In this document: positions 160 to 56,415 of the stretch, piece by piece
Numbering within the stretch: the first letter of the stretch is position 1
Layout: every line of letters starts with the position of its first letter
DNA from: a virus
Taxonomy: Duplodnaviria; Heunggongvirae; Uroviricota; Caudoviricetes
Direction: 5' to 3' (one strand)
Length of the DNA stretch: 64,000 nt
Virus record (IMG/VR): IMGVR_UViG_3300037313_000454
Location: 33,490-97,489 of that record
Notes under the pieces: model-generated
Told to the model about the DNA's origin: nothing
The model's database searches: none
What the model saw: the letters and a program-made list of their open reading frames with translations, nothing else
Made by a program: the position numbers and the translations under genes

Positions 160-522
160 ATGCGTGATTTCAACGCAACGCACATAGATGCGAATTGTGA
201 GGACGTTTCGGGCTTCCATGAGAACGAACTATTCTTCAACTGTATGTTCAAGAAACTAAATGGACTTACACTGAAGAACTGCGACTTAAATCGCAGCCAG
301 TTCAATCCAGAGGAAGTCCGAGACGCTCTCGGATTTACTGTGACACTTGATTGTCATAGCTTTGCCGACGTGAAGTTAAATCCGTTGGCTTTTGATTTAA
401 TTCTCTGCCTGCTCATTAAGAGTGCAGGTAACGACACGAAACGTCGCAAGCTTGTGGATGTCATTGGTAAGGACAGACTACTCGCTTTGCTAAAGGAAAT
501 GTCTACACTGGAAGGTAACTAA
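160..522 (+). CDS. hypothetical protein (tail module)
   Basis: 120-aa ORF starts right after the upstream stop. Its stop overlaps the tail fiber start (TAATG). No recognisable motifs. Confidence 0.45.
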   Translation: MRDFNATHIDANCEDVSGFHENELFFNCMFKKLNGLTLKNCDLNRSQFNPEEVRDALGFTVTLDCHSFADVKLNPLAFDLILCLLIKSAGNDTKRRKLVDVIGKDRLLALLKEMSTLEGN

Positions 523-31548: not shown

Positions 31549-31634
31549 TGGTGGTCAATGTAGGAATCGAACCTACACGTCCGAAGACACTAGCTCCTAA
31601 GGCTAGCGCGTCTGCCAATTCCGCCAATTGACCG
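31549..31634 (-). tRNA. tRNA-Leu (anticodon UAG), type II with long variable arm, CCA encoded
   Basis: Minus-strand GGTCAATTGGCGGAATTGGCAGACGCG-CTAGC-CTTAGGA-GCTAG-TGTCTTCGGACGTG-GTAGGTTCGATTCCTAC-ATTGACC-A-CCA. Acceptor stem is a perfect 7 bp. D-arm closely matches E. coli tRNA-Leu. Anticodon loop is C-U-UAG-G-A. Confidence 0.8.
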
Positions 31635-32156: not shown

Positions 32157-32870
32157 CTATACACCTTCAGTGTTGGGTTGTACTAAACTTATACTCGCTG
32201 CCGTGGATTCCCCACTTTATCCACCACGGACGCCTCTTCATTCACACCGTTCGAGGCTAGGTCTGTGAAATACGGCCTTGCGACCGCCCGTCTAAACCTA
32301 GTGTCTACTTTTTCCAACCTTATCTACCCCCAACCAGTTCTGCGTAGCAGATGTATACGTTTTAGGGAGAGCCACAGTTGGCATGGTCTATTGCACCACA
32401 GCGAGTTGATATGGCCATGACGTAATCAGCAGGACATGCTGCGACAGAGGACTTGGCCGTATGACGTTGGTAGGCAGTGTCTTATTGACGACTCCACTTA
32501 TCACGGTCTTTTACCGTGCCTACCAAAATGGTTCCGTAAGGGCTGAGTTCCACGTTACTTACATTCCCTCGCTAGCAAGGGCAGCCACCATGTTATCTCA
32601 ATTAAGCGGAGTTTTACCGCGCTATCCTCTTACGGAAATTTTGTGCGGGGAACAAGCGACTACAGTTGTTTTGGTTTTCATAGGCAATGAAAGAAGTAAC
32701 TGTAATCTACACCACCGCAACTAAACTTTTATACACGGGACGGCTAATCTTAGCTGTTATGTACGATTCAATCGGTTCCAAACCGTAGATTTATTCTGAC
32801 CGGAGCGGCTACGGGTCGCCAGTCAGCTACATTACCGAACTACCTGCCGTTACACAGCCCGTGTATCTTG
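32157..32870 (-). ncRNA. noncoding region with repeat units related to the Y-RNA-like modules
   Basis: A 714-nt ORF-free stretch between minus-strand genes. It contains TATAAAAGTTTAG-TTGCGGTGGTGTAGATTACAGTTACTTC...GCTTGTTCCCCGCACAA and GTATAAGTTTAG, the same stem module and junction motif as the 53.7-54.5 kb array. Confidence 0.35.
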
Positions 32871-43812: not shown

Positions 43813-45396
43813 CTAGTGACTTTGCTCGAAAGGGACGACTTCTCCGGGGGTGGATGGCTTATCCACTTCAACTTCCTGATAATGCAGCGGCAGTTTACCG
43901 CCATCATCAGTCATGCGTTCCAACTCTTCCAGCCGTTCTTTAGCGCGTTCCTGATAGGCTTCGTCAGCGGCAGCCGCTTGTTTTTCATAGTCAGCGTCCT
44001 CTTCTGGCGTCTCACCACCCGGAACAACGCCATCGCTGCCGTCGTCCGTGCCCATAGAGAAGCACTGCATACACATGAACGTCTTGTCTTGCGTAGCAAC
44101 CACCATGTCAGAGCCTTCGAGAACGTCGCCACACCCGTCACAATCCATCTTCTGGATTTCATCCGACTTGAACAGAGAGGTCACCATCATAACATCTTCC
44201 GGCAACCGATTCAAGCGGTATCCAGCAATGGTGTCAGGATACTGATTGGCACATGCTTCGCAAGCGAACTCGTCATTCTCCATGACATAGTAATAATCGC
44301 CATCGAAGATTTTGATGCCGCAGTAACCGCACGGCCAATTGTCCTTGGAGTGTTGATGACTGATGTCCTTGGCGGCATTTTCAATCATCCTCTTGATGCG
44401 CTCCGTGGAACTCATGTAGCGGTACTGCGCGTCCGACGTTTTGTCTTCGGTTTTAACAAGCGGTCGGTTATCGGTTCCCATAACGACCACTTTGTCGCTG
44501 CTTTGGCCTTGTGAAAGACGGGGCGTCTGGTTAGTCACAAAGTTCTGACCTGTGGTGCTGTCATGCACCCAGCGGCGTTTCTCAACGCCTTCACTGTCCT
44601 TGTAATTTTCCCAGTGCCCATTCACGTTGTCGTTCTTGCTGTTGCCGAGATTGTGCCAATAGGACTCATTCTCCCAGTCCTGCTCGGTGTAAACGCCATA
44701 CGAAGACTTGGAATTGTCCTGCCACGTACCATACTTACGGGTATCGTAGTCGGCAAATTCAAGCTTCATGTCACGGAAAAGGGAGTTGCCTTCCAAGCGA
44801 TAAAGCTGGTTCTCTTTAAGCTTGAACCACACTGCCCCTTTGAGCAGCCCCGCCATACGCAGTGCGACTTCCAGCGAATCTTTCGTGCTGGCGAAAATCC
44901 ATGCATTCTCGGTACGGGCAAGGGTTAACTCGCCCCCATTGAACCGTCCCAGATAGAGCTTATCGTCCTTCCAAAAGACGATTGCACCGTATGCAGAGAT
45001 TTCGGACAACGGACGTTCTTCTGCGATATGGTAGAAGATATGCTCGGAGTCAACTTCACACTTCCGCTCATATTTCTTCTGCAACTCATCGTGATTGCGC
45101 ACGACCCCATTGTGCATCCCCAGTACGTTCTTGATACGGAATGGGTGAGAGTTGTCCTTCACGGTTGCGCCCGTGGTTGGCTGCCGAGTATGGAGGGCAG
45201 CTTGTTTATGTCCAAGGAAAGTAGCGTTCATTCCCTCAGTGATTTCACCGAGAGATTTGATGATTTGCTCCTTTCCATCCGTCCAACCCCAAGATTTCCT
45301 ACCGCGAGTCTCCATATAAATCGCAAGGATGGGGTATGCAATGTTAATCCTGCTGTCGTACTGGTTCCAGCAAGAGTAGCCAGCTATTCCACACAT
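43813..45396 (-). CDS. class II (Ntn) glutamine amidotransferase with C-terminal zinc fingers
   Basis: N-terminal MCGIAG is the Cys nucleophile after Met. C-terminal CxxC...CxxC pairs follow. Confidence 0.6.
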   Translation of the reverse strand: MCGIAGYSCWNQYDSRINIAYPILAIYMETRGRKSWGWTDGKEQIIKSLGEITEGMNATFLGHKQAALHTRQPTTGATVKDNSHPFRIKNVLGMHNGVVRNHDELQKKYERKCEVDSEHIFYHIAEERPLSEISAYGAIVFWKDDKLYLGRFNGGELTLARTENAWIFASTKDSLEVALRMAGLLKGAVWFKLKENQLYRLEGNSLFRDMKLEFADYDTRKYGTWQDNSKSSYGVYTEQDWENESYWHNLGNSKNDNVNGHWENYKDSEGVEKRRWVHDSTTGQNFVTNQTPRLSQGQSSDKVVVMGTDNRPLVKTEDKTSDAQYRYMSSTERIKRMIENAAKDISHQHSKDNWPCGYCGIKIFDGDYYYVMENDEFACEACANQYPDTIAGYRLNRLPEDVMMVTSLFKSDEIQKMDCDGCGDVLEGSDMVVATQDKTFMCMQCFSMGTDDGSDGVVPGGETPEEDADYEKQAAAADEAYQERAKERLEELERMTDDGGKLPLHYQEVEVDKPSTPGEVVPFEQSH

Positions 45397-45408
45397 AATT
45401 GTTCGTCC

Positions 45409-47076
45409 TTAATCGTTCGTATCTAGGGATTGGTGCGCAAAAGCATCTTGTATCATCTGCTTAAAGCGCGGCATTTCATTGTCCTGCTGTTCCCACTTCG
45501 TTTTTGCATATTCTTGCAATTCACGGGGCAGGATAGCAAGTAAAGCTTCTCTCGAATCACGCGGCAACTGTCGAATCTGCTGCTCACTCATCTTGGAAGC
45601 GGCTTCCACTACATGACCGCAGATGAGTGCCCAGTTGACAATCTCGTTGTAATCCGTAGTTCCTTCTTTGTGTCGGAATTCCACCGTACCACGCATGAAG
45701 AAACTATGCAAGTTCAACGCCTTGTAGCGGACATCCTCATACTTATGAGACTTTGTCTTTGCCAACGCCGCGCCAATCTTGCGATATTCCTCTGACTTCT
45801 TTCGTTCGGGAACCATTGCGTACACTGGCGCACCAGTCTCGTCATAGCGAATCAGTTTACGCACTTTCTTGACGGGGAGCTTCTTCTTGTCTTTGCCACG
45901 AGTGTTCTCCGGCAACTTTGCTCCGTCCCGGTACATCTTGCTCAATTGTTCCTTACGGAAATCTTTCGGGTTCGTCTGCTTGGTCAGGTAGAACCTGCCA
46001 CAAGGCCGCGAATAACGGCTTTCCAAGCGGACAGGGTTAACCAAGCCAAACATAGCCTGCTCAACCCTGTAATACAGCATCACCAAACGCCGCAAGTCAT
46101 AATGGGTATATGCCGAACGCTGGTCATACACCATATCGCCTTGCGAGTTAGTGATTACCGTACCATCGTCCTTGACCAATGGAGTTCCTTTGACATTGAT
46201 GTGAACGTGCATACCGCAGGAAGTAGAACAGCCCGCCTTGATGTCAGCCAGACCGTCGCACAGTTCCTTAATATGCGTCAGGAACATATCACCGTTGCAA
46301 GGGTTAGTGTTAATCTCGAAACCGCCTTCATCGAGTGAACCGTCGCGCACCACCGGGTCTTTCCACTTGTTAATGGCGTTGTTGACCTTTGTACTGCGGC
46401 GGTTACGGTCTACTTTATCGACTTCCATCTCGACGGAGATGTGACGGCGCAATGGGTTGCGTTTAAACTGTCCTTTAGCAAATACCGAGTGGAACATCTG
46501 GAATTTGCCGTTGCGGAAGTCAACTCCGGTCATGTTACATGCACAACACCTGTGGCATAGACCACACGGCCTTTCTTCAGTGAAGTCATACCGTAAAGAG
46601 GTATGGAAATTGCTCTCAGACATCTCGGTGTAGCGGCGATTGCACTGTTCACAACGTACACAAGCGCAATGGTCTTTACACTGCTGGCAAGACTGGCAGA
46701 ATCCCCTGCGACTGGTCGTATGCATACTGTTATGCTGACACACAAGCTCTGCGCAGTGATTATGACAATGATGGCAATAGTTGCACCATTCTTCAGTCCG
46801 CTCTTTGTACGTGTTACCTTCAGGACACTTGGGACAAATCCAGCATTTGCAACACTTACCGAGACACAGTAAGCAGTTCTGACATAACACATCACTGCTG
46901 CGGGAAACCATGGTAAGGCAGGCACGACACGCCATACAGTTGCAGCAAGACTCAGCACAACGGCCACAGCCGGGGCACAGTTCTTCTGGTCGATAAGTGA
47001 TGCCGCAATTGCTACACGTACTGCATTCTGTGCATTGCGGTAGCCCACAACCGAGACAGTTTTCAAGTACAGGCAT
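45409..47076 (-). CDS. Cys-rich protein with C-terminal amidoligase-like (GS-fold) domain
   Basis: About 200 aa N-terminal with more than 60 Cys. The C-terminal part has EGGFEINTNP...GMHVHIN, resembling ORF 48604..49491. Confidence 0.4.
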   Translation of the reverse strand: MPVLENCLGCGLPQCTECSTCSNCGITYRPEELCPGCGRCAESCCNCMACRACLTMVSRSSDVLCQNCLLCLGKCCKCWICPKCPEGNTYKERTEEWCNYCHHCHNHCAELVCQHNSMHTTSRRGFCQSCQQCKDHCACVRCEQCNRRYTEMSESNFHTSLRYDFTEERPCGLCHRCCACNMTGVDFRNGKFQMFHSVFAKGQFKRNPLRRHISVEMEVDKVDRNRRSTKVNNAINKWKDPVVRDGSLDEGGFEINTNPCNGDMFLTHIKELCDGLADIKAGCSTSCGMHVHINVKGTPLVKDDGTVITNSQGDMVYDQRSAYTHYDLRRLVMLYYRVEQAMFGLVNPVRLESRYSRPCGRFYLTKQTNPKDFRKEQLSKMYRDGAKLPENTRGKDKKKLPVKKVRKLIRYDETGAPVYAMVPERKKSEEYRKIGAALAKTKSHKYEDVRYKALNLHSFFMRGTVEFRHKEGTTDYNEIVNWALICGHVVEAASKMSEQQIRQLPRDSREALLAILPRELQEYAKTKWEQQDNEMPRFKQMIQDAFAHQSLDTND

Positions 47077-47085
47077 ATCTATCCT

Positions 47086-47322
47086 TTATGCGAAGAGAAC
47101 CCGTTGTTTAATGACTTTTCCATCAGGTAAGGTCGTAATTTTGAGTAACCGATGGTCGCACTGGGTACAACCCTCTAATATCTTGCCGTACACTTCAGCA
47201 AGGCGGCGATTAGGCCACGCATTGGAGTCATTTTCCCAATGTTTGTGCTTCTTGCTCTTACGTTGCCATTGGTAATGAACGGTAGGTTTCATAGAAATCT
47301 TGTGTACAGATGGCGAATACAC
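47086..47322 (-). CDS. hypothetical protein
   Basis: 78-aa ORF. Confidence 0.35.
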   Translation of the reverse strand: MYSPSVHKISMKPTVHYQWQRKSKKHKHWENDSNAWPNRRLAEVYGKILEGCTQCDHRLLKITTLPDGKVIKQRVLFA

Positions 47323-47386
47323 CCGCTGATTTGGGGTATACAGTTACAGACAAACTGTAGGGCTGATGGAAGAATGACGGTTTCGA

Positions 47387-47710
47387 TTACGCACATGCCT
47401 TGTCTTCGACCTCATGGAGACGATGGACGTTAAGGAAAAGTTCCAGTGGATTGTCGGCGCGATAATAGCCGACAGTTTTGCCGTACTGCCGTATGACCTC
47501 ATACCACTTCCCGTCTTCGTCGAACCGGATGTAGCCAAACCACATCTTTTTGGTATGATGATTAGCTACCTTAGACGTATCGTTTTCCAATTCGTCTACC
47601 TTGGCTAAGTCAATCTGCATCTCGGTGCTGTCGAAGATTGTTCCAGCCGTTGGTCGTTTCAAGAACTGGTCAAACGTGTTATCTTCGATAGGTAATGCTT
47701 GGAAACTCAA
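47387..47710 (-). CDS. hypothetical protein
   Basis: 107-aa ORF. Confidence 0.4.
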   Translation of the reverse strand: MSFQALPIEDNTFDQFLKRPTAGTIFDSTEMQIDLAKVDELENDTSKVANHHTKKMWFGYIRFDEDGKWYEVIRQYGKTVGYYRADNPLELFLNVHRLHEVEDKACA

Positions 47711-47730
47711 GGGATTACTCCTGATTGTTG

Positions 47731-47760
47731 GTTATACCGCAACAACTAGTTCTTTGTCAA
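47731..47760 (-). promoter_or_regulatory. sigma70-type promoter, TTGACA-18-TATAAC (minus strand)
   Basis: Reverse complement of 47755-47760 is TTGACA and of 47731-47736 is TATAAC. Confidence 0.4.
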
Positions 47761-48595
47761 GTGAATTCAATAGCGGTTGTTTAGCTAGCTCGAAGGCCGC
47801 TCTAGCCGCTATGTAAGATTTGGTCTGAACTTTGGCACGATGGGTTATACGACCGCGAGTGGAGGAAATAACGTAACCCTCAAAGTTATCTCTCGTCTCT
47901 TCCGCCAAGTTAGTGAAATCCTTGGCGGCATAACAGCGGGGCATAGGAACACGGTATTCGTTAGCCCAACGACGTTGGTCAATCCTAGACCATTCAGACG
48001 AATCCAGCGTGAACGATATCAATACCAGCCCTTGGTAGGGATAATTGACTACTTTCTTAGTCTGTTCAGACAGTATTTCAAAGGTTGGATACGCCGAACG
48101 CGCCCATTTTATACCGTTATCATTAACCCATTTGGTAGCCCATTCTGATACAGGGTCTTCAAATCCACGGCGAGTGACCACGCCATAGTGTGTGCGGTAA
48201 CCGTTGGTGGTGTACTGCCAACCCAATCCCTGCTCACCGTCTACTTTTTCGTATACCTGAACGTAAGACGGGTCTTCTTCTTTCCATTCTTTATAGGTGC
48301 GAAGTGTAGTACAGCGGGATTTTAGCACAGGGTCGTTAACCGCACCGCGAAGCGGGTAGATACGCGATATGGCGCGAGAGATGATGTTATGACGAAGGTC
48401 GCTCTCTTCGCCATGGTACATCAGCATGTCAAACTTATCTAAATGCGGCCCCCACGAGCGGGATTTATCAACCGCTTCCCTGTCAACAACCAACAGAGTC
48501 AGCGGCAGGTTTGGGTGCTTGAATTTCTTGTACCAGCCACTAGCCACATATTGGTCGAGAACGGCTGGGGCGTAAATGTCTTCCAACCAAGGCAT
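47732..48595 (-). CDS. putative ATP-dependent RNA/nucleic-acid ligase (nucleotidyltransferase motifs)
   Basis: Motif I-like EKVDGEQG (KxDG), motif IV-like EGYVISS and motif V-like HRAKVQTK. Confidence 0.4.
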   Translation of the reverse strand: MPWLEDIYAPAVLDQYVASGWYKKFKHPNLPLTLLVVDREAVDKSRSWGPHLDKFDMLMYHGEESDLRHNIISRAISRIYPLRGAVNDPVLKSRCTTLRTYKEWKEEDPSYVQVYEKVDGEQGLGWQYTTNGYRTHYGVVTRRGFEDPVSEWATKWVNDNGIKWARSAYPTFEILSEQTKKVVNYPYQGLVLISFTLDSSEWSRIDQRRWANEYRVPMPRCYAAKDFTNLAEETRDNFEGYVISSTRGRITHRAKVQTKSYIAARAAFELAKQPLLNSLDKELVVAV

Positions 48596-48603
48596 CGTCG
48601 CTC

Positions 48604-49491
48604 CTAAGCGATGTGCTTAAAGTTTTCCCAACGGGGTTTCATGTCTTCGTCGAGACGGGGCGCGAACTTCTCAAGCGTCTCCATCTTGTCGTTCTTGAGG
48701 ATGCGCTTGGCCACCACAGCCGCGTCGAAATCGACGTTCTGGTAAGCCCGGAAGAACTTGACCAGCTTTTGGAACTTAGCTTCCTTCGTTCCCCGCAGCG
48801 GCAGCATCGTCTTGGCGAAGCCGGGATTCAACGCCGCCAACTTGGTCGCCGTGAGCATAATCATGGCGTTGTGCGGGTCAAACAACCAACTGCACGGTGT
48901 GCGGTACTCGGTGCGGTAGAAATGCGTTCCGTCCGCACTTTGCGTCTGTGTGTTTGCAATCGCCGTAGCGCCGAACTGACCGTAACCAGCCGGGTCAGTA
49001 CGCCGTCTGTCAGATTCTTCGCCGGGAAGCAAGTCGATGCTTTCCATGACTTCCGTGATGCGGTCACAGGCGTTCAGCCGCTCATCGAACACCTTGTCGG
49101 GGACACCATGCTTGCCTTTGAACGGCAGTTCCAGATGGATGTGGCCACCAATGGACATGTGACGTGGCGACCGAGAATATTCATCTTCCACCGGGGCGTT
49201 GGTATGTGTCACGACAGACGTGTACGGCACAAACGCTCCACTACGCCAGCGGAACTTACGGAACGGGCGTCCGGTCGGGCTTTCAAGGATGTCCTTGAGT
49301 TCATTGACGATGTCGGACGTGAAGTAACTGGCTGGGGGACGAAGCTCCACGCAATAGCCGCCGTGGTCTGCCCCGAAGCCCGATGAATTCACGTTACCGA
49401 CGGTGATGAGAGTGGTCGGGTTCTGCGGGTCTACCACGCAGAATTCCGGGTCACAACCCACTTTAAACGGGTTGACGTGCATTTTTTGCAT
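48604..49491 (-). CDS. amidoligase-like protein (glutamine-synthetase fold)
   Basis: VGCDPEF, GYCVELRP and GGHIHLELP blocks. Paralogous to the C-terminus of 45409..47076. Confidence 0.4.
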   Translation of the reverse strand: MQKMHVNPFKVGCDPEFCVVDPQNPTTLITVGNVNSSGFGADHGGYCVELRPPASYFTSDIVNELKDILESPTGRPFRKFRWRSGAFVPYTSVVTHTNAPVEDEYSRSPRHMSIGGHIHLELPFKGKHGVPDKVFDERLNACDRITEVMESIDLLPGEESDRRRTDPAGYGQFGATAIANTQTQSADGTHFYRTEYRTPCSWLFDPHNAMIMLTATKLAALNPGFAKTMLPLRGTKEAKFQKLVKFFRAYQNVDFDAAVVAKRILKNDKMETLEKFAPRLDEDMKPRWENFKHIA

Positions 49492-49642
49492 ACGCTGTGT
49501 CCTTTGGGAAAAGGTTTCATTGTCAAGCGGTTAGCCGCTTCGTGAGACACTGAATTCCTCACAATCTTAAACGGTTGCGACCCGTTTTAAAAGAAAGGTG
49601 TACTCTCAGTGACTCACGCAGAGGCTAACTCTGCGCTGGTTG

Positions 49643-50449
49643 TTACTTAACCGGAAGCGTCGGCACTGCATTCCCGCCGACTAGGAACGTACAAGTCGAA
49701 TGCGAACAGGCGTCGCGCTGCATCTTGATTGTCTCAAGGGCAATGTATTGCTGGGGACTCAGTTGCATGGCGACACGATAGGCATTGTCAGCTTCAGCAC
49801 GGCTCAACTCTGCCGCTTTACGCTGGTCTTCAGCCAATTTGCGCTGTTTCTCTGTGTTCACCCGTTGTTCTTGTGCCGCCGTCTCGATACGCTGGCTCTT
49901 GATAGAGTCCGGGGGATTGGCTTTTCCGACCGTGACCTGAATCAGCTTGATAGGCAGACCGGAGTCTCGGATGTACTGTTCCATTGCGCCGGACACTTCA
50001 TTGTCGATGGCTTCAATGGCCGTGGTACTGATAGCGGTTTCGTTCATTCCGTGTTTTCGCACAGCTTGTCGGACACGGTTGCGGAACTCCATCTCCACGT
50101 TTTTGTCATACCACTTGTCACCGAATTTACTGATAAGAGTTACGGAGTCAGTGACTTGCAGTCGGATGATTCCATCGAAGTCCAGTGGTACACCGTCGGA
50201 CGACATCAAGTCGTCGAAGTGTACGGAGAACTGTTGCGGCTGCATGTTCACCACTACCTCTTCTGTGCTGATGGCGATAACCTGCCGACCAGCCTTGACG
50301 GGCTGGGGGTCAACGCCACCGCTGCCGAAGATGTAGGGCTTTTTGATAAGCACCGCTTCATGCCCCGCATCGGGGGCTGAGAATCCACAGCCGATGAGTG
50401 ACAGAGACAGCACCAAGATGAAGGTGAGAGTTGTCAGTGTTTTTGTCAT
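49643..50449 (-). CDS. SPFH/band-7-like lipoprotein
   Basis: Lipobox LSLSLIGC. Central SPFH-like region. C-terminal coiled coil. Confidence 0.45.
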   Translation of the reverse strand: MTKTLTTLTFILVLSLSLIGCGFSAPDAGHEAVLIKKPYIFGSGGVDPQPVKAGRQVIAISTEEVVVNMQPQQFSVHFDDLMSSDGVPLDFDGIIRLQVTDSVTLISKFGDKWYDKNVEMEFRNRVRQAVRKHGMNETAISTTAIEAIDNEVSGAMEQYIRDSGLPIKLIQVTVGKANPPDSIKSQRIETAAQEQRVNTEKQRKLAEDQRKAAELSRAEADNAYRVAMQLSPQQYIALETIKMQRDACSHSTCTFLVGGNAVPTLPVK

Positions 50450-50483
50450 TGTTTTCCTTTTCTACCACAAAATCTTTATTTTG

Positions 50484-50729
50484 TCAAGCTTTTTCTAGAC
50501 CCAGCTTCTTGCGCCTGTTGTGCCACCGCCTAGCCGCCCGTCTAGCGGCTTGTTCATCATAAGGCTTACCTTGGCCTTCTCTATGCTTCGCACACAGGTT
50601 TACGACCACCGTATCCGCAGGCTTACCGTGGTAGATTTCATGCTCACCGTGGAAGATGAACAGGGGTTCGGCGTGAATCTCAGTGCAACGCACTAAGTCT
50701 TCATCTAATGCTTGGCATCTGGTACTCAT
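50484..50729 (-). CDS. hypothetical protein
   Basis: 81-aa ORF. Confidence 0.4.
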   Translation of the reverse strand: MSTRCQALDEDLVRCTEIHAEPLFIFHGEHEIYHGKPADTVVVNLCAKHREGQGKPYDEQAARRAARRWHNRRKKLGLEKA

Positions 50730-50974
50730 GCGGCTGGTTCTCCAAATTCAATAGTGCCATCGTCGTTTATACAGAGCCAAATCTCTTCGTCACCAAAGTC
50801 TAAATGAAGCCACAAACTAGACCGTTCTCCTTTTAGACCGGAGACACGACATAGATGTGGGTTCTGGATGAATTCCCTTAGCGATTTCTTAAACTCTTCC
50901 ATGTTGTTACCATTCAACATGAAACAGGTGTTAGCTTTTGGTTCTATTTTGCCGTAAAAGTGCGTGATTGCCAT
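50726..50974 (-). CDS. hypothetical protein
   Basis: 82 aa. Its ATG is the ATG of the AACTTTATG motif that follows the upstream tRNA-like RNA. Confidence 0.45.
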   Translation of the reverse strand: MAITHFYGKIEPKANTCFMLNGNNMEEFKKSLREFIQNPHLCRVSGLKGERSSLWLHLDFGDEEIWLCINDDGTIEFGEPAA

Positions 50975-50983
50975 AAAGTTATT

Positions 50984-51234
50984 GGGGTGACCGACGGGAA
51001 TTGAACCCGCGTAACGTCGGTAATAAGTAGCTTCCCTGTAATCAGGGACGAAAAGCTGTTTACGGAATGAGCCGGATTAGCACTTGGACATTGTCACAGG
51101 CGTTCACCATGAATCTTGAGCGGTTACTAGCTTTCGGAACTAGTCACTCGGCATTACGGTCTGACCGCATAACTTACTTCTTTTCAACTACTTATGACCG
51201 ATATGTTGTCTTCACCGTTTAAACGACGGTCACC
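50984..51234 (-). ncRNA. tRNA-like-bracketed structured RNA (Y-RNA-like family), about 250 nt, CCA encoded
   Basis: 5' G-GTGACCG at 51227-51234 pairs with the 3' CGGTCAC that follows T-arm GCGGG-TTCAATT-CCCGT. Discriminator C and CCA are at 50984-50986. An extra 5' G faces C73. Confidence 0.45.
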
Positions 51235-51239
51235 ATACC

Positions 51240-51614
51240 TTAATTCGTGAAATGTTGAATGCCCTTGTAAACCCCGTCCGCTATGAGAATGTCATGTTGC
51301 GACAAGTCACGTACCTCACCGACGTAAGCCAGTGCCTCTACAAAAGTATCCCCGACCAAAACTTTGACCGGGACTTTGTGATACCCAATCTCAAGGCGGT
51401 CGATGTAATGCATTGCCTTGTCTGTGACTTCGTAAAGTTCACCCTTTACTTTGTATGAGTCGTATGGTATCGCGGCTGGTACGCCGCCGTAGATAAGGAA
51501 AAGAGCGTAGTTACGAAGGGTGGCTTCCCCTAGGAAGCGGGACTGGGTGAGGGACAGGTACTTGTGATTGGCGTAATGCCGTTTGAGAGTGCCGTAGACA
51601 AAGAGCTTGGTCAT
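51240..51614 (-). CDS. gamma-glutamyl cyclotransferase (AIG2/GGCT-like)
   Basis: N-terminal FVYGTLKR, the YGTL signature. Confidence 0.6.
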   Translation of the reverse strand: MTKLFVYGTLKRHYANHKYLSLTQSRFLGEATLRNYALFLIYGGVPAAIPYDSYKVKGELYEVTDKAMHYIDRLEIGYHKVPVKVLVGDTFVEALAYVGEVRDLSQHDILIADGVYKGIQHFTN

Positions 51615-51694: not shown

Positions 51695-51901
51695 TTAACC
51701 GGGGTAGACGCAATTTATCGCCACAGTGTGTAAGACATCTTTGCCAAAATACTCGTCTTGGCGTGTGACTTCGACTTCGATGCAGTCAACCTTTGTTAGA
51801 ATCTCTTCAACAAGAGCCATTAGCTGTTTTTTAGCCGCTTCATGCTGTTGCTTTCTGCGTTCATCGTCACCGCCGCAGAAGTCATAACTGTCATAAGTCA
51901 T
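51695..51901 (-). CDS. hypothetical protein
   Basis: 68-aa ORF. Confidence 0.35.
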   Translation of the reverse strand: MTYDSYDFCGGDDERRKQQHEAAKKQLMALVEEILTKVDCIEVEVTRQDEYFGKDVLHTVAINCVYPG

Positions 51902-52791
51902 GCGTAGAACTCCAAGTGTACGTCCGCTATCAGCTTCGATATAGCGGCACGGTCTACTTTTTCAGGTAGGGAAGATTTGTCACGGGCTTTCTCAGCCTCA
52001 GCGCGGATTTGCTCACCCATTTCCTGTAGCTCGGTCAGCTTGTACTTACCGCGCCGAATATCTTTTAACACTTCGACTTCAGGCCGGGGATAGGTGATTC
52101 GTCCATCTTCCATCAACTCTTTCGCCTCAGACAGCAGCCGGATGATGTGCATGGCATACTTGGTATCGTAGCCATACAAATCAACGAGCTTATCGCGGTT
52201 GATATTCTTCTGTCCCCTGAGTCCCATGAGGCGTTCCATCTGGTCTTGGGCGTAATAGATGAACGGCCAGTAATGGGACTTGGCAAGGAAAATCAATGTA
52301 TTGTCGAGAATACGTTGCCATGGTTCCAGTACAAGTTTTTCTTCGCCGTCACCGTCACATACAGTACAAGGTTCAACATCATAGGATGTTTCGCCAGCAC
52401 CGTAACAACGGTAGCAAATATCGTTATGCTCTTTTGTGTACTGGAACTCTAAGGTGGAAAACAGGAAGCTGAGGACGGTGGGATTGCCCTTAGCCACCAT
52501 ACCAGCCCACTTCTGCAAACTGTGCAGGGCAATGTCTACTTCGCCCGGTTCGCGTTCACCACGACTACGTTTGGTAGTGTCGCCGGGATAGACGAAATGC
52601 TCGAACGCGTCGATGCCCAGCGTCTTCTCTTTGGGTGGGATGAAGATACCGTAGTAATCGGTGTCGCTCTGACCGCCACAATCATCAGCCCGTGCCCCAT
52701 GTTGCGTGGAGCCGCCGATAAAGGCCATGATGAGATTGTCAGGGTAAGGAAAGCCGTGTTTGGCTAGGATTTCTTGAATGGACATATTCAC
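51898..52791 (-). CDS. Pol-beta-superfamily nucleotidyltransferase
   Basis: GGSTQHGARADDCGGQSDTDYYGIF is the hG[GS]...D.D nucleotidyltransferase signature. C-terminal Cys cluster. Confidence 0.5.
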   Translation of the reverse strand: MNMSIQEILAKHGFPYPDNLIMAFIGGSTQHGARADDCGGQSDTDYYGIFIPPKEKTLGIDAFEHFVYPGDTTKRSRGEREPGEVDIALHSLQKWAGMVAKGNPTVLSFLFSTLEFQYTKEHNDICYRCYGAGETSYDVEPCTVCDGDGEEKLVLEPWQRILDNTLIFLAKSHYWPFIYYAQDQMERLMGLRGQKNINRDKLVDLYGYDTKYAMHIIRLLSEAKELMEDGRITYPRPEVEVLKDIRRGKYKLTELQEMGEQIRAEAEKARDKSSLPEKVDRAAISKLIADVHLEFYA

Positions 52792-53239: not shown

Positions 53240-53327
53240 ATGAGTGCATACTGTGCGGGAACAAACGGGCACGGTGTATTTTCGTAAAAGGAAGTAACCG
53301 AGTCCTTCACCACGCACAGTGAGGTTT

Positions 53328-53651
53328 TTAAAGCCCTGCGGCGGAAATGGAAACGCCAAGCCAATAACCAGCGGCTTGACGGGTGCGCTGCGGCATTTCT
53401 TTGTTCTTGTAGATGTTCTCCAAGACGCGGGTCTTGACCCCCATACCACCATCGACAACGCCAGTGAACTTGTCACTGTTCAGACGGGCTACGGCGATGC
53501 CACGGCCACGTTCTTTGTTAAAGTTGTCAAGGGGATTGCGGGTGGCAACGGCGAACTTGATTTTTCCGTCTTCGAGAAGGGTGGAAGCGACCGCAGCCAC
53601 AGGGTGGCCGTGGAGATTGCGGAGATAGAACAGCTTTACTTTCTGAGGCAT
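53328..53651 (-). CDS. hypothetical protein
   Basis: 107 aa. RBS aacaggag. First gene downstream of the Y-RNA-like array. Confidence 0.45.
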   Translation of the reverse strand: MPQKVKLFYLRNLHGHPVAAVASTLLEDGKIKFAVATRNPLDNFNKERGRGIAVARLNSDKFTGVVDGGMGVKTRVLENIYKNKEMPQRTRQAAGYWLGVSISAAGL

Positions 53652-54553
53652 AGAACTCCTGTTAGCTCTACTTTACAGCTTATGGGATTATTGCCGACGG
53701 GAACAGGCGAAAACGGATATTTTCGTGTGCTACCGTTACACTAACGCCCTACCGATTAGGCAGGACGTATGGGAGTCGAACCCATACCACGTCATCCAGA
53801 GTGAAGTAACCGTTCTCTTCACCACGTCAGCAAACTTTAAGGGCGGGAACAGGCGACAAGGCTCTTTTTGCCGATTGCTCTACCAGACTGAGCTATCTCC
53901 CTCACATTCTTAGGGAGAGTGGGATTCGAACCCACGACCCATCGTTCCGATTGAAGTATTCCTTATCTACACCACGCCCAAACTTTAAGTGAAGGGAACA
54001 TTTGGTAACAGGTATGCCGTGTCCTTTGGCGATTCTTTACCCCTTGCGGGGCGGGGACGGACTCATACCCTTCGCATGTAAGAAGTAACTGTTACACATC
54101 ACCACTTCACAAACTTATGCGTGACCCCGTTATTCAGGCAATCAAAGCCCGATTAAAATGCCAGCACCAAGCCTTTCGACAAGGGGGAGGCCAACATGCG
54201 TTATGGGTTCTAGGGACGATTACTCTCCATACATCGTCACCAAAGGTCACGCTTGGCAGGGCAAGTCATAAGCTTCCTATCCCTGCAAACTTAGCTTAGG
54301 AGAACAAGCGACACGGCACGTTTATTCACCAATTGAAGAAGTATCCGTATCTTTCACTACCTAAGCAGAATTTACTCGGGGCACTCGGATTCAGTTGAGT
54401 CTGAGCTAGGTGAGGTTACGGATTAGCCTAGCTTTTGTAGCTCTTGCACCACCGTAACGATACGGCAAGAGACGTACTTACAGAGTAACTGTCGTCTCGA
54501 ACGCTTTTACACTAGCCCCGAACTTTGAAGTCCCGCAGTGTATCCAGTTGCGC
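53652..54553 (-). ncRNA. tandem array of Y-RNA-like tRNA-mimic modules (at least 4 units)
   Basis: 900-nt ORF-free region. Units are delimited by (T)TAAAGTTTG at about 53831, 53979, 54110 and 54286. Two units carry T-arm (GTGGG-TTCGAAT-CCCAC; ATGGG-TTCGACT-CCCAT) plus 3' acceptor strand, then 8-10 nt, then the complementary 5' acceptor strand plus D-arm (AGGGAGA-TA-GCTC-AGTCTGGTA-GAGC; AGGGCGT-TA-GTGT-AACGGTA-GCAC). Unit ends pair with each other. Confidence 0.5.
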
Positions 54554-54874
54554 TTATGCTCCTGTTTTTTGAGAACCTATTAACGCTGATACATCTGACC
54601 AAGACTTATTATTGCGAAGATGATAGGTGCTGTCTTCACATCCTTCACAATAACTAATCACCTTATTATCTACCAAGATATCTACTTGCTCATTCGTGAC
54701 TATGCGCCATACATAAGGCACAGTCTCGCTGGCAATTACTGCGTCATATGGATATTTATCCCACGGTAATTCAGGAACATATCCTATGACTTTCTCTTTG
54801 TAGATAAGAGGTAGCATTCGTCTGAACATTGTATCGCCACACAAACTTTTATCTGTAGAGGAACAAGCGAACAC
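54554..54874 (-). CDS. hypothetical protein
   Basis: 106-aa ORF between the Rsr-like gene and the ncRNA array. Confidence 0.45.
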   Translation of the reverse strand: MFACSSTDKSLCGDTMFRRMLPLIYKEKVIGYVPELPWDKYPYDAVIASETVPYVWRIVTNEQVDILVDNKVISYCEGCEDSTYHLRNNKSWSDVSALIGSQKTGA

Positions 54875-54999
54875 AGTGTTTTGTCGTCTTTGATTGTCGA
54901 AGTAACTGTGTTCTTCACCATCTACAGGTATTTCATGATGCGGCGTTCATCTAGCCCCTATGGTGGGGCACATGGTCATTACTAACCGCACCATGAAAC

Positions 55000-56355
55000 T
55001 TAATCTTCGTTCTCAGTGGCCAGAATGAAGTCTACCACAGCTTCAGACCATCCGTCCACATGCTTCCATTTGCCGTAACCGACGCCATTCTGATAGGCAG
55101 CCACGTTGATAACGTAGCCCTTGTCGGTCAACGGGTTGGACAACGCCTGATGCGACTGCTCATCCGTGAGGATGATAAGGCGGTCATAGCCTTCCTTGTC
55201 CGCAACCAGCTTGGCGCGTTCGGTATACGTACCACCACCGAACTGACGCATGATAGCGTCACGCAAGGCAAATCCACGCCGTGCCGGAACCAGCTTGGCA
55301 TCGTTGGCGAACGTGTACACAACCACGCTCTCGCAAATCTCTCGGAGCAGGATAGCCAATCCGTTCGCAGCGTCGATACGGCTCAACTCCGACTTACTGG
55401 AGATAGCCGAAGTCATCGAACCCGATACGTCAATGAGCAGCACCGTCTTGCCCTTGAGTTTAGGGGCATCGGCCACACACTTGAACATGGCCTCTTCCAA
55501 GTACGGCTCAAACTTGGGTGCATACTTTGCAGCCGAGATGAACCGGAACGGCAACACACGCTCGGTGTTCATGGACTGCAAGCCATCGACAATGACGCGC
55601 TCCTCAACGCCCGACTGAATCATGTTCCGCAGGTTACGGAGCATGGCCAGCGCACCCAGCTTCTTCTCTTGGATGAGGCGAGTGAACGTAGCAGCTTTGT
55701 CTGCACCAGCGGACAGGGCGACTTCCCATGTATCCGGCGACGTAAGTGTGTTCTCGGCCAACATCTTGTACGTCTCGATGCATGGCGCGGTATCTCCGAC
55801 TTCCGGCCCCCAACCCGGAGTACGCTTTTCTTTGCGCGGGTCAGGATGCGTCAAGAACATAACGTCCCGCAGCTTCACAGCCCCATCACGGTTGTACTTG
55901 GCAAGGCTGTAGCGGTTGAACTTGTAGAACGCCCGTGCCAAGCCCTTCTTCACCTGTGCCGAAAGAGGCTGACGGCCATCCTTCCAATAGATGGCAAGGA
56001 ACTCGGTCAGTTCATCGGGACGCTGAATGATGCGCTCCAACGTGTCTGCTACCAACAGACGGGCTTCTTTGCTCCCCCGCGCCAATTCACGGGCAAGGAA
56101 CAGCGGTACGTGACGCAGCTTGAACTTCTCACGCGCCTCTACCGCGACATTAGCCACATCTTGGGGCTTGTTGTTCTTGATAGCCTCAGCCAGCACTTGG
56201 GCGTGGCTTTGGCCGTCGATGTAGAAGCTGTCTTCCCACAGAAGGCAGCACATCACCAACCGACGAAGCTGTTGGAGCGGGTTGATTCGCTTGGCCACCG
56301 CACCCTCATAGGTGCGCGGAGCAGCCGTAGCGATACGTTTATTCAGGGTCGCCAT
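55000..56355 (-). CDS. rsr: Ro60/Rsr ortholog (TROVE domain + von Willebrand A domain)
   Basis: TROVE-like blocks LRRLVMCCLLWEDSFY, PLFLARELA and MLRNLRNMIQSGV. vWA MIDAS motif LLIDVSGSM. 451 aa. Encoded just upstream of the tRNA-mimic RNA array. Confidence 0.7.
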   Translation of the reverse strand: MATLNKRIATAAPRTYEGAVAKRINPLQQLRRLVMCCLLWEDSFYIDGQSHAQVLAEAIKNNKPQDVANVAVEAREKFKLRHVPLFLARELARGSKEARLLVADTLERIIQRPDELTEFLAIYWKDGRQPLSAQVKKGLARAFYKFNRYSLAKYNRDGAVKLRDVMFLTHPDPRKEKRTPGWGPEVGDTAPCIETYKMLAENTLTSPDTWEVALSAGADKAATFTRLIQEKKLGALAMLRNLRNMIQSGVEERVIVDGLQSMNTERVLPFRFISAAKYAPKFEPYLEEAMFKCVADAPKLKGKTVLLIDVSGSMTSAISSKSELSRIDAANGLAILLREICESVVVYTFANDAKLVPARRGFALRDAIMRQFGGGTYTERAKLVADKEGYDRLIILTDEQSHQALSNPLTDKGYVINVAAYQNGVGYGKWKHVDGWSEAVVDFILATENED

Positions 56356-56386: not shown

Positions 56387-56415
56387 ATGATACCACAAAA
56401 AACTCGTTTTGTCAA
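56387..56415 (-). promoter_or_regulatory. sigma70-type promoter, TTGACA-17-TGgTATCAT (minus strand)
   Basis: Reverse complement of 56410-56415 is TTGACA and of 56387-56392 is TATCAT. Followed by an RBS and the rsr-like ATG. Confidence 0.55.

What the first reader, a model, noticed from the sequence alone, without database searches (positions are those of the whole stretch)
53652..56355. Ro60/Rsr ortholog next to a tandem array of permuted tRNA-mimic (Y-RNA-like) modules
ORF 55000..56355 has TROVE-like blocks (LRRLVMCCLLWEDSFY, PLFLARELA, MLRNLRNMIQSGV) followed by a vWA MIDAS motif (DVSGSM). That is the Ro60/Rsr architecture. The 900-nt ORF-free stretch 53652-54553 downstream on the same strand holds at least four repeat units separated by TTAAAGTTTG. 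In two units a canonical T-arm (GTGGG-TTCGAAT-CCCAC; ATGGG-TTCGACT-CCCAT) plus a 7-nt 3' acceptor strand (TCTCCCT; ACGTCCT) is followed 8-10 nt later by the perfectly complementary 5' acceptor strand and a canonical D-arm (AGGGAGA-TA-GCTC-AGTCTGGTA-GAGC; AGGGCGT-TA-GTGT-AACGGTA-GCAC). So the 3' half precedes the 5' half, a circularly permuted tRNA topology closed by a loop. The unit's outer ends (GCUGACG / CGUCGGC and GGGCGUGG / CC-CGCCC) pair as a terminal stem. This is the known design of bacterial Y RNAs such as YrlA, which bind Rsr. A phage-borne tandem array, with degenerate copies toward 54.5 kb, is unusual.
Basis: partly seen in the sequence, partly recalled or inferred. Interest (0 to 1): 0.8.

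Follow-up and report, generated by a model that had tools for sequence, protein, structure and literature searches.

The report
Phage Ro60 gene with Y-RNA array
This uncultivated phage carries a Ro60/Rsr RNA-binding protein gene followed by a string of seven small "Y RNAs", two of which mimic a rearranged tRNA; the system is real and clearly recognisable, but it is a known kind of system that turns out to be common in related phages and bacteria.

Summary
ORF 56355..55000 (-) is a full-length Ro60/Rsr protein. It passes the Pfam TROVE cut-off and aligns over residues 12-446 with the solved Thermus phage phiLo Ro60.

On the same strand I find seven Y-RNA units, not four:
- four short hairpins
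- one medium unit with a GCAA-capped hairpin
- two YrlA-type units whose middle is a circularly permuted tRNA (T arm, closed 7-bp acceptor hairpin, D arm)

Two of the seven lie outside the reported coordinates (53251-53319 and 32642-32721). Two further stretches of the array (U2, U4) match no model.

The fold is supported by compensatory base changes across 38 short and 43 long homologous units. A covariance model built only from other phage contigs finds the two tRNA-like units at E=2.5e-28 and 2.1e-25.

The claim that a phage-borne tandem array is unusual does not hold. In this Rsr clade, most of the 57 viral and 60 bacterial loci fetched have matches, typically 1-5 per locus and up to 8, always on the rsr strand. 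Examples include Caulobacter phage CcrColossus and 43-kb Xanthomonas phages. Rfam's YrlA threshold misses them, and two GenBank tRNA annotations lie inside such units.

Verdict: a new member of a known kind, of modest interest.

The parts
56387..56415 (-). sigma-70-like promoter candidate upstream of rsr (TTGACA-17-TATCAT with TG)
   Evidence: 11 of 12 consensus matches. It lies 32 nt upstream of the rsr ATG. This is a consensus match only; expression was not tested.
55000..56355 (-). rsr: Ro60/Rsr (TROVE + vWA) protein, 451 aa
   Evidence: PF05731 TROVE 2.4e-13 (50.5 bits, cut-off 23); VWA_2 and vWA_Ro60 are below their cut-offs; phrog_850 7.4e-51, full length. PDB 9KOP/9L5Y (phage phiLo Ro60) 1.7e-38 over residues 12-446, with DVSGSM conserved.
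54853..54927 (-). U1: short Y RNA (YrlB-like hairpin)
   Evidence: R2, a model built without window sequences, gives 53.9 bits, E=1.8e-13. R1 gives 67.9 bits, but U1 is a seed of that model. The MFE fold gives stem1, internal loop and stem2, z=-2.9.
54554..54829 (-). small ORF (87-106 aa depending on start) inside the array; coding status uncertain
   Evidence: One search lists the ORF. It has no Pfam or PHROG hit. One pipeline called it (87 aa in L123) and another did not (L122) on identical DNA. The longest (GTG) start overlaps U1.
54367..54522 (-). U2: divergent or degenerate unit. It has a closing stem, a 5' UAGUGUA motif, GUUACUC and a UAGCUCAG D-arm-like stretch, but no 3' UGUUCC motif.
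   Evidence: R1, R2 and Rfam do not match it. It folds with a terminal stem, z=-2.6. The assignment rests on sequence inspection only.
54294..54366 (-). U3: short Y RNA
   Evidence: R2 gives 39.5 bits, E=2.2e-9. R1 gives 52.7 bits, as a seed. Fold.
54117..54286 (-). U4: structured stretch of unknown class (small hairpin plus a 135-nt domain closed by GCGUGACC/GGUCACGC)
   Evidence: No model matches it. MFE -61.9 kcal/mol, z=-2.8. No homologue in the fetched loci.
53988..54111 (-). U5: medium Y RNA. It has the Y stem plus a non-tRNA module with a GC-rich GCAA-capped hairpin.
   Evidence: R1 gives 29.9 bits, E=3.6e-6, and U5 is not a seed. R2 gives 34.2 bits, E=7.4e-8. Fold.
53839..53981 (-). 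U6: YrlA-type Y RNA. T arm 53919-53935, closed 7-bp acceptor hairpin 53896-53918, D arm 53877-53893, Y stem at both ends.
   Evidence: R2 gives 105.9 bits, E=2.5e-28, model positions 1-135. Rfam YrlA covers the core at 41.1 bits, E=3e-7, below GA 69. The MFE fold contains all three arms. The re-permuted sequence is called a tRNA by ARAGORN.
53693..53831 (-). U7: YrlA-type Y RNA. T arm 53769-53785, acceptor hairpin 53744-53768 (7 bp, extendable to 10), D arm 53727-53741.
   Evidence: R2 gives 95.6 bits, E=2.1e-25. R1 gives 34.1 bits, E=2.3e-7, and U7 is not a seed. Rfam YrlA aligns full length at 19.4 bits, E=0.56. Fold z=-3.2.
53328..53651 (-). 107-aa ORF between U7 and U8; real gene of unknown function
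   Evidence: AGGAG lies 5 nt before the ATG. One homologue is known, 61% identical over 93% of the query. Both pipelines called it. No family hit.
53251..53319 (-). U8: short Y RNA, outside the finding's coordinates
   Evidence: R2 gives 48.8 bits, E=4.9e-12. R1 gives 69.3 bits, as a seed. It lies in the 88-nt gap between two called genes.
32642..32721 (-). U9: short Y RNA 21 kb from rsr, in an ORF-poor stretch
   Evidence: R2 gives 51.7 bits, E=7.6e-13. R1 gives 66.6 bits, as a seed. Fold z=-3.6. Context.
51898..52791 (-). RlaP-family nucleotidyltransferase (RNA-ligase-associated Pol-beta), a likely functional neighbour
   Evidence: PF10127 3e-17; phrog_388 3e-44. Its role is taken from PMC7824862.
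47732..48595 (-). possible Rnl1/gp63-like RNA ligase
   Evidence: phrog_562 6.5e-8. There is no Pfam hit, so this is weak.

Best explanation
The locus is a phage-encoded Ro60/Rsr ribonucleoprotein system.

Shown here:
- rsr is followed on the same strand by a set of Y RNA genes. Five recognisable units and two divergent stretches lie in one array with A-rich ...AAGUUUG linkers. Two more units lie further along the strand.
- Every recognisable unit has the same scaffold. The 5' and 3' ends pair (stem1). A one-base bulge and a G-G/C-C step follow. Then comes an asymmetric internal loop, 5'-UG(A/U)A on one side and 3'-GCYUGUU on the other. The 5' sequence across this step and loop (GGUGAAG or GGUGUAG in most units) is the clade's version of the GNCGAAN0-1G Rsr motif. 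A second 7-8-bp stem follows, and an apical region begins (G)UUACUUC.
- The apical region is a plain loop in four units and a GNRA-capped hairpin module in one. In two units it is a tRNA-like L-shape module in permuted order: variable loop, T arm, acceptor helix closed by a loop, then D arm.

Inferred from published work on Deinococcus, Salmonella, Mycobacterium and phage phiLo:
- Rsr binds the scaffold helix of each Y RNA.
- The apical modules act as adaptors or gates that tether the Rsr ring to a host partner. The documented partner elsewhere is the exoribonuclease PNPase. The effect would be to redirect degradation or repair of structured RNA during infection.
- The neighbouring RlaP nucleotidyltransferase and a possible RNA ligase fit an RNA-repair or counter-defence role.

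Inferred, not shown:
- Co-transcription from the promoter-like site upstream of rsr.
- Processing at the AG|UUU linkers, which resemble an RNase E site (from my own knowledge of that consensus).
- RNase P cleavage of the 7-bp acceptor helices, as happens in M. smegmatis YrlA.
For: Protein identity.

Scaffold:
- An alignment of 38 short units gives 92.9% standard pairs.
- 14 of 16 pairs show changes on both sides.
- No shuffle of 500 reaches the observed percentage paired or covariation score, and slid controls give 42-53%.
- Stem2 was not used to pick the units, so its covariation is independent evidence.

tRNA-like module:
- In 43 long units the T stem pairs in 97.6% of cells, the acceptor hairpin in 89.8% (7 of 7 pairs compensatory) and the D stem in 94.1%. 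Slid controls give 41-49%.
- Model R2, built from 33 units of other contigs, finds U6 and U7 full length at E=2.5e-28 and 2.1e-25. It finds the five other units through the scaffold.
- ARAGORN finds no tRNA in the native order but calls one after un-permuting.

Association with rsr: all 146 R1 matches in 57 viral loci and all 117 matches in 60 bacterial loci lie on the rsr strand, nearly all within about 1 kb of the gene.

Literature:
- The YrlA design and RNase P cleavage of 7-bp acceptor stems (PMC4201824; bioRxiv 10.1101/312249).
- Phage phiLo Ro60 binds two phage Y-like RNAs and host PNPase (PMC12135203).
- TROVE, RlaP and ligases are read as phage RNA-repair kit (PMC7824862).
Against: - No expression, processing or binding data exist for this phage.
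- The units fall below Rfam's YrlA gathering score.
- The strict GNCGAAN0-1G motif is absent from all window units and present in only 12 of 81 aligned relatives. Rsr recognition of the variant motif is therefore assumed, not shown.
- The short helix that should correspond to the tRNA anticodon stem is not supported at fixed alignment columns (50% paired).
- Stem1 pairing was a selection criterion in my first descriptor scan, so its covariation is partly circular.
- The RNA-ligase assignment is weak (with no Pfam hit).
- The partner protein (PNPase or another) is unknown.
Confidence: 0.85

Rival explanations
1. The tRNA-like units act mainly as free tRNA decoys or sponges, independently of Rsr. 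They would titrate host tRNA-directed defence nucleases, tRNA-modifying enzymes or RNase P. Their position next to rsr would reflect shared regulation only.
For: The modules keep the canonical tRNA elbow nucleotides (U8, A14, G18G19, the UUCGA T loop). 22 of 43 long units have tRNA-length 7-bp acceptor stems. The arrays often abut real tRNA or tmRNA genes. Several copies per locus are common.
Against: Every tRNA-like module sits inside the same conserved scaffold that the non-tRNA units carry, and that scaffold corresponds to the published Rsr-binding region (PMC4201824). The modules have no anticodon loop, so anticodon nucleases would have no target. All units lie on the rsr strand beside rsr in 117 loci.
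Confidence: 0.08
2. The units are permuted pre-tRNA genes. After end-joining of the terminal stem and cleavage of the acceptor loop by RNase P and RNase Z, they would mature into working tRNAs, as in Cyanidioschyzon.
For: The 3' half precedes the 5' half, with a closed acceptor helix. ARAGORN accepts the re-permuted sequence. A possible RNA ligase and an RlaP nucleotidyltransferase are nearby. This possibility is raised in bioRxiv 10.1101/312249.
Against: There is no anticodon loop. The would-be anticodon arm is a 15-bp bulged helix with invariant motifs shared with units that have no tRNA part. No bulge-helix-bulge splice motif or splicing endonuclease is evident. The phage has an ordinary tRNA-Leu gene elsewhere.
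Confidence: 0.02
3. The repeats are decayed tRNA genes or a non-functional repeat family (REP-like elements or terminators) that accumulated in an intergenic gap.
For: U2 and U4 look degenerate and match no model. ARAGORN and GenBank annotators call parts of related units tRNAs.
Against: Compensatory changes maintain five helices across phages and bacteria whose Rsr proteins are only 43-60% identical to the window's. Single-stranded motifs are nearly invariant. Strand and position relative to rsr are fixed.
Confidence: 0.03

Closest known systems
YrlA / YrlB Y RNAs with Rsr of Salmonella Typhimurium and Mycobacterium smegmatis (Chen et al. 2014, PMC4201824; Wang et al. 2018, bioRxiv 10.1101/312249; Rfam RF02553)
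   Same: - Y RNA genes lie beside rsr on the same strand, downstream of rsr as in the Salmonella rsr-yrlB-yrlA-rtcBA operon.
- A terminal stem is formed by the 5' and 3' ends, with a purine-rich Rsr motif near the 5' end.
- The YrlA-type units carry T arm, closed acceptor stem-loop and D arm in that order, i.e. a permuted tRNA.
- They are accompanied by short hairpin Y RNAs with a pyrimidine-rich loop (YrlB-like).
- The acceptor stems are 7 bp, as in M. smegmatis YrlA.
   Different: - Scores are below the Rfam gathering threshold (41.1 and 19.4 bits against 69).
- The motif is GGUGAAG/GGUGUAG rather than GNCGAAN0-1G.
- Extra clade-specific invariant motifs are present: apical (G)UUACUUC and 3' CGYYUGUUCC.
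- There are seven recognisable units rather than two, including a third module type (a GNRA-capped hairpin).
- Two small ORFs are interleaved with the units.
- The nearby genes include an RlaP nucleotidyltransferase and a possible Rnl1-like ligase. No RtcB or RtcA match was seen among the ORFs I scanned, though not every ORF was scanned.
Thermus phage phiLo Ro60 with Yrl1/Yrl2 (PMC12135203; PDB 9KOP, 9L5Y)
   Same: It is a phage-encoded Ro60 and the closest solved structure by sequence (E=1.7e-38, full length). Phage-encoded Y-like RNAs lie next to the gene. It is the published model for a phage hijacking host PNPase.
   Different: phiLo has two Y-like RNAs, upstream of the gene, found through CGAA motifs. 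No tRNA-like module is described for them. Here there are seven units, downstream, and two are tRNA-like.
Caulobacter phage CcrColossus and 43-kb Xanthomonas/Xylella phages (same Rsr clade)
   Same: Their Rsr is 45-47% identical to the window's. They carry the same scaffold and YrlA-type units in arrays beside rsr. In CcrColossus, at E<=0.01, the scaffold model finds six units and the long model five tRNA-like ones. In phage 10KY502B the counts are five and three. CcrColossus was already listed as encoding a Y RNA (PMC12135203, citing Chen 2014).
   Different: Their arrays lie upstream of rsr. The records annotate none of the units as Y RNA, and one unit in each is annotated as a tRNA. The window phage is otherwise unrelated: its primase/helicase is closest to Tunturiibacter (Acidobacteriota) phages at 43%.
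Metazoan Y RNAs / Ro60
   Same: A ring-shaped TROVE-vWA protein is paired with several small RNAs. Their paired ends form a bulged helix that binds Ro, and a variable distal module recruits other proteins. Two to four paralogous Y RNAs per genome.
   Different: Metazoan Y RNAs have no tRNA-like module, are separate Pol III genes, and have different motif sequences.

Membership tests
Ro60/Rsr (TROVE-vWA) proteins | TROVE domain above Pfam's curated threshold | tested here: met
   PF05731 scores 50.5 bits against a cut-off of 23, E=2.4e-13. The match covers only residues 204-278.
Ro60/Rsr (TROVE-vWA) proteins | Full-length similarity to a Ro60 of solved ring structure (HEAT-repeat ring plus C-terminal vWA) | tested here: met
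   phmmer against the PDB matches 9KOP/9L5Y (phiLo Ro60) at E=1.7e-38, query residues 12-446 of 451. phrog_850 matches over 9-449 at 7.4e-51. No structure was predicted here.
Ro60/Rsr (TROVE-vWA) proteins | vWA domain with a MIDAS DxSxS motif | tested here: inconclusive
   DVSGS is present and aligns with DVSGS of phiLo Ro60. However, Pfam VWA_2 (20.4 bits against 27) and vWA_Ro60 (17.9 against 27.7) are below their cut-offs.
YrlA-type Y RNA (Rfam RF02553) | Score at or above Rfam's gathering threshold (69 bits) | tested here: not met
   U6 scores 41.1 bits (core only, E=3e-7) and U7 19.4 bits (E=0.56). No unit in 14 related loci, including CcrColossus, reaches it either.
YrlA-type Y RNA (definition of Chen et al. 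2014) | Encoded within 4 kb of rsr on the same strand | tested here: met
   U6 and U7 lie 1.0-1.3 kb downstream of the rsr stop on the minus strand. All 263 R1 matches in related loci lie on the rsr strand.
YrlA-type Y RNA (definition of Chen et al. 2014) | Conserved T-like and D-like stem-loops separated by an acceptor-like stem-loop (order T, AS, D), i.e. a permuted tRNA-like domain | tested here: met
   Covariation over 43 units gives T 97.6%, AS 89.8% and D 94.1% paired, with no shuffle of 500 reaching the observed percentage paired or covariation score. R2 matches are full length. ARAGORN calls a tRNA after un-permuting.
YrlA-type Y RNA (definition of Chen et al. 2014) | GNCGAAN0-1G motif near the 5' end | tested here: inconclusive
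   The window units have GGUGAAG, GGUGUAG, AGUGAAA or GGUGAUG at that position, so the C is replaced by U. The strict motif occurs in 12 of 81 aligned relatives; the clade consensus is RGYGWAG.
YrlA-type Y RNA (definition of Chen et al. 2014) | Bound and stabilised by Rsr; carries tRNA modifications (pseudouridine 55, dihydrouridine) | not testable with these tools
   Needs co-immunoprecipitation or Northern blots and modification mapping in infected cells.
Short Y RNAs (YrlB / Yrn2 type) | Long hairpin formed by the RNA ends with the Rsr motif and a small pyrimidine-rich loop, next to rsr | tested here: met
   U1, U3, U8 and U9 have two stacked stems and an apical loop starting UUACUUC. R2 matches them at E from 2e-13 to 2e-9. 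U9 lies 21 kb from rsr, which departs from the 'next to rsr' rule.
Canonical tRNA genes | Detected by a tRNA finder or the Rfam tRNA model in native order | tested here: not met
   ARAGORN finds none in 53-55 kb. Rfam tRNA gives 17.4 bits against GA 29.
Permuted tRNA genes (Cyanidioschyzon type) | An anticodon stem-loop reconstituted on joining the ends, flanked by a bulge-helix-bulge splice motif | tested here: not met
   The ends form a roughly 15-bp bulged helix with invariant Y-RNA motifs and no 7-nt anticodon loop. The splice motif was judged by inspection only.

The most novel reading that the evidence does not exclude
The expansion into arrays has a function. Up to eight or so units per locus carry at least three module types: a plain loop, a GNRA-capped hairpin and a tRNA mimic with a full 7-bp acceptor stem. 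Each module type would couple the one Rsr ring to a different host enzyme.

The tRNA-type units would be cut by RNase P and given a CCA end. The resulting two-piece Y RNAs would serve as bait or adaptors for host tRNA-directed defence or repair enzymes. In this reading the phage carries a programmable set of adaptors rather than one Y RNA.

U2 and U4, which keep only the 5' half of the motif, would be further, unrecognised Rsr ligands.
Probability: 0.15. Interest if true: 0.65.

Novelty: new member of a known kind. Interest (0 to 1): 0.35.

Why it matters
Ro60 and its Y RNAs are conserved from bacteria to humans, and their cellular role is still only partly understood. Phage copies are natural experiments in what the system can be used for. 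This locus adds a clean example.

More usefully, it points to a whole clade of phages and bacteria whose Y RNAs escape Rfam's YrlA threshold. The hosts include Acidobacteriota, Planctomycetota, Caulobacter, Xanthomonas and crAss-like phage hosts. Two GenBank tRNA annotations lie inside such units, and ARAGORN makes similar false calls.

The two covariance models built here give a direct way to annotate these RNAs. They also give a set of 80+ aligned units with clade-specific invariant motifs that could guide Rsr-binding experiments. The finding does not change the current picture of what Y RNAs are.

Tried and rejected
- Rfam at gathering thresholds finds only the tRNA-Leu in the window. It finds no YrlA in 14 related loci.
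- The permissive Rfam scan aligned U7 in a shifted register, placing GGUUAC under GNCGAA. I rejected that register once the family alignment showed the motif lies 8 nt upstream.
- Megablast of the locus against 50,697 phage records gave no match.
- tblastn of the nine neighbouring ORFs against the 57 viral loci found no synteny. The single hit came from a spurious 161-aa ORF read across U8.
- blastn of U2, U4 and the U5 module against the loci found nothing significant.
- A 3-bp helix standing in for the anticodon stem was tested at fixed columns and is not supported (50% paired).
- I considered pairing of GAAG in the 5' motif with CUUC in the apical motif. I rejected it because GUAG variants keep CUUC (alignments).
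- The near-identical contigs from other samples (L122-L124) are 100% identical to the window, so they give no variation to analyse.
- The DNA of the only homologue of the 107-aa ORF could not be fetched.
- The 2020 Annual Review on bacterial Ro60 (PMC10870794) and the supplementary tables of Chen 2014 are not held. I therefore could not check whether multi-unit arrays in phages were tabulated there.


Full report
**Setting.** The genes of this region are on the minus strand. The window is phage DNA. It encodes a ribonucleotide reductase, a primase/helicase, helicases and exonucleases with PHROG matches. It has no close relative among 50,697 deposited phages. Identical DNA occurs in three other public assemblies. 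The primase/helicase is closest to Tunturiibacter (Acidobacteriota) phages at 43% identity. The closest cellular Rsr proteins are from Acidobacteriota (58%). An acidobacterial host is therefore a reasonable guess.

**The protein.**
- ORF 56355..55000 (451 aa) passes Pfam's TROVE cut-off (50.5 bits against 23).
- It matches phrog_850 'RNA-binding protein' end to end (7.4e-51).
- It aligns over residues 12-446 with the crystal and cryo-EM chains of Thermus phage phiLo Ro60 (9KOP/9L5Y, E=1.7e-38).
- The Pfam vWA models are below threshold, so the vWA assignment rests on the phiLo alignment.
- A strong sigma-70-like site (TTGACA-17-TATCAT, extended -10) lies just upstream.

**The RNAs in the window.** Reading the minus strand, each unit has the same frame:
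- a terminal stem of 5-9 bp made by the two ends
- a bulged U and a G-G/C-C step
- an internal loop (UGAA or UGUA opposite GCYUGUU)
- a second stem of 7-8 bp
- an apical region that begins (G)UUACUUC

Single-sequence folding returns this frame for all seven units. For U6 and U7 it also returns the T arm, acceptor hairpin and D arm.

ARAGORN finds no tRNA here. It does call a tRNA when the 5' acceptor-D half is placed before the T-3' acceptor half. That includes the real U6 sequence with the Y stem treated as an intron. This is a direct test of the 'circular permutation' reading. The anticodon arms in two of those constructs are my own insertions, so the amino-acid labels mean nothing.

**Comparative evidence.**
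- The Rsr protein retrieved 57 IMG/VR loci at 43-60% identity.
- A descriptor scan showed the same units beside rsr in nearly all of them.
- An alignment of 38 short units gave, with RNAalifold run blind, exactly the two-stem frame, with 14 of 16 pairs changed on both sides.
- The pair count was 92.9% paired. Slid controls gave 42-53%, and no shuffle of 500 reached the observed percentage paired or covariation score.
- Stem1 was a criterion of my scan, so only stem2 (90.1% paired, 7 of 8 pairs compensatory) is fully independent.
- An alignment of 43 long units gave T stem 97.6%, acceptor hairpin 89.8% with all seven pairs compensatory, D stem 94.1%, stem2 95.5% and stem1 89.7%.
- A 3-bp 'anticodon-like' helix was not supported at fixed columns (50%).

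**Models.** R1 is built from the short units, including four from the window.
- In the window it recovers non-seed units U7 (34.1 bits, E=2.3e-7) and U5 (29.9 bits, E=3.6e-6). U6 is recovered only weakly (10.7 bits), because of the long insert.

R2 is built from 33 long units of other contigs only. It finds:

| Unit | Bits |
|---|---|
| U6 | 105.9 (E=2.5e-28) |
| U7 | 95.6 (E=2.1e-25) |
| U1 | 53.9 |
| U9 | 51.7 |
| U8 | 48.8 |
| U3 | 39.5 |
| U5 | 34.2 |

- Nothing else in 64 kb reaches E<0.01.
- The window therefore holds seven recognisable Y RNAs. Two of them lie outside the reported span: U8 at 53251-53319 and U9 at 32642-32721.
- The stretches I call U2 (54367-54522) and U4 (54117-54286) fold with closing stems (z about -2.6 and -2.8). 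They keep a 5' U-RG-UGW-like motif but lack the 3' UGUUCC motif and match no model. They may be decayed copies or a different ligand class; this is unresolved.

**How common arrays are.**
- R1 gives 146 matches at E<=0.01 in the 57 viral loci, all on the rsr strand. Most loci have 1-4, and one (L050) has 8.
- It gives 117 matches in 60 bacterial loci, all on the rsr strand and usually 2-5 just upstream of rsr. Those loci are mostly Acidobacteriota, with some Planctomycetota and Desulfobacterales. One of them is the complete chromosome of Acidobacteriaceae ZG23-2.
- Cultured phages of the same Rsr clade include CcrColossus, CcrPW, Brevundimonas jumbo phages, Ralstonia RsoM2USA, Microcystis Mvi-JY20, 43-kb Xanthomonas/Xylella phages and crAss-like phages.
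- At E<=0.01, CcrColossus has six scaffold units and five tRNA-like ones, and Xanthomonas phage 10KY502B has five and three.
- None is annotated as a Y RNA. The 'tRNA-Gln' of CcrColossus and the 'tRNA-Thr' of 10KY502B lie inside YrlA-type units. ARAGORN makes similar false calls.
- Rfam's YrlA model reaches its gathering score in none of 14 loci tested.
- The array is therefore typical of the clade. The window sits near the top of the range in unit number.

**Relation to what is known.**
- Chen et al. 2014 (PMC4201824) reported YrlA-like RNAs next to rsr in 254 bacteria and 22 phages. They found at least two Y RNAs in each species studied, processing from one precursor in M. smegmatis, and RNase P cleavage plus CCA addition when the acceptor stem has 7 bp.
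- Wang et al. 2018 (bioRxiv 10.1101/312249) solved the tRNA-like domain and describe YrlAs as circularly permuted tRNAs with closed acceptor loops.
- The phiLo study (PMC12135203) shows a phage Ro60 binding two phage Y-like RNAs and host PNPase.
- The jumbo-phage survey (PMC7824862) groups TROVE proteins, RlaP nucleotidyltransferases and RNA ligases as RNA-repair equipment. Here an RlaP gene lies 0.5-2.3 kb beyond the units, and a weak Rnl1/gp63-like match lies 5 kb further.

**What differs here.**
- The clade-specific motif set is RGYGWAG instead of strict GNCGAAN0-1G, which occurs in only 12 of 81 units. It also includes the near-invariant apical G(U/A)UACUUC and the 3' CGYYUGUUCC.
- 22 of 43 long units have full 7-bp acceptor stems.
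- There is a third module type with GNRA or UUCG-capped hairpins.
- Small ORFs are interleaved with the units.

**Mechanism.**
- Shown: the protein family, the RNA folds, their conservation, and their fixed association with rsr.
- Inferred from homologues: Rsr binds the bulged scaffold helix, and the apical modules tether or gate the ring towards host enzymes, with PNPase the documented case.
- Inferred from sequence only: co-transcription with rsr, cleavage at the AG|UUU linkers, and RNase P cleavage of U6 and U7. The linkers resemble an RNase E site and also separate true tRNAs in locus L001.

**Verdict.** This is a real, well-supported Rsr/Y-RNA locus: a new member of a known kind. The practical by-product is that current annotation tools miss or mislabel these RNAs across many phages and bacteria.

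Noticed in passing
window 53251-53319 (-): An eighth Y-RNA unit (short type) sits in the 88-nt gap between the 107-aa ORF and the next gene, just outside the finding's coordinates. The 161-aa ORF listed across it is spurious in its N-terminal part.
   Followed up: yes
window 32157-32870 (-), unit at 32642-32721: A ninth unit (short Y RNA; R2 51.7 bits) lies 21 kb from rsr in a 700-nt ORF-poor stretch. The same AAAGUUU linker precedes it. Two further structured-looking stretches (32728-32872 and 32190-32640) flank it and have no Rfam match. The phage's tRNA-Leu(UAG) is 1 kb further on (31549-31633).
   Followed up: partly
L058 3173-3240 (CcrColossus NC_019406 109217-109284); L060 3822-3889 (Xanthomonas phage 10KY502B OQ622092 20624-20691): GenBank 'tRNA-Gln' and 'tRNA-Thr' features lie inside YrlA-type Y RNA units (R2 98 and 120 bits), so they are probably misannotations. 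The 10KY502B one even passes Rfam's tRNA gathering score (33.3 bits). ARAGORN makes similar false calls at L001 4702-4773 and L060 3601-3670.
   Followed up: partly
L058-L061 and L001, L003, L007, L016, L019, L024, L025, L047, L053, L055: Rfam's YrlA model (GA 69 bits) detects none of the Y RNAs in these 14 loci of the clade. This includes CcrColossus, which the literature lists as encoding one.
   Followed up: yes
window 54117-54286 and 54367-54522 (-): Two stretches inside the array (U4, U2) fold with closing stems and keep a 5' U-RG-UGW-like motif. They lack the 3' UGUUCC motif and match no model. They could be decayed units or a different RNA class.
   Followed up: partly
window 53831-54848 (-) linkers; L001 5094-5545: Units are separated by A-rich ...AAGUUUG linkers: 5 copies of AAGTTTG in about 1 kb. 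The same AAGUUUG separates genuine tRNAs in locus L001. It resembles the RNase E cleavage consensus, which I recall from the literature and did not test.
   Followed up: no
window 43813-51614 (-): A cluster of genes lies downstream of the locus: a glutamine amidotransferase-like protein, an amidoligase, a phiEco32-like COOH-NH2 ligase, an SPFH/Band 7 protein and a gamma-glutamyl cyclotransferase. This looks like a peptide or metabolite-modification module unrelated to the Y RNAs.
   Followed up: no
window 522-5648 (+): A 1708-aa ORF has no PHROG match at E<=1e-5.
   Followed up: no
L122-L124; P0001: The locus is 100% identical in a JGI metagenome (3300037423) and two Logan assemblies (SRR35147159, SRR35148478). 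A 97,489-nt JGI contig carries the 107-aa ORF, which suggests a genome of about 97 kb.
   Followed up: partly
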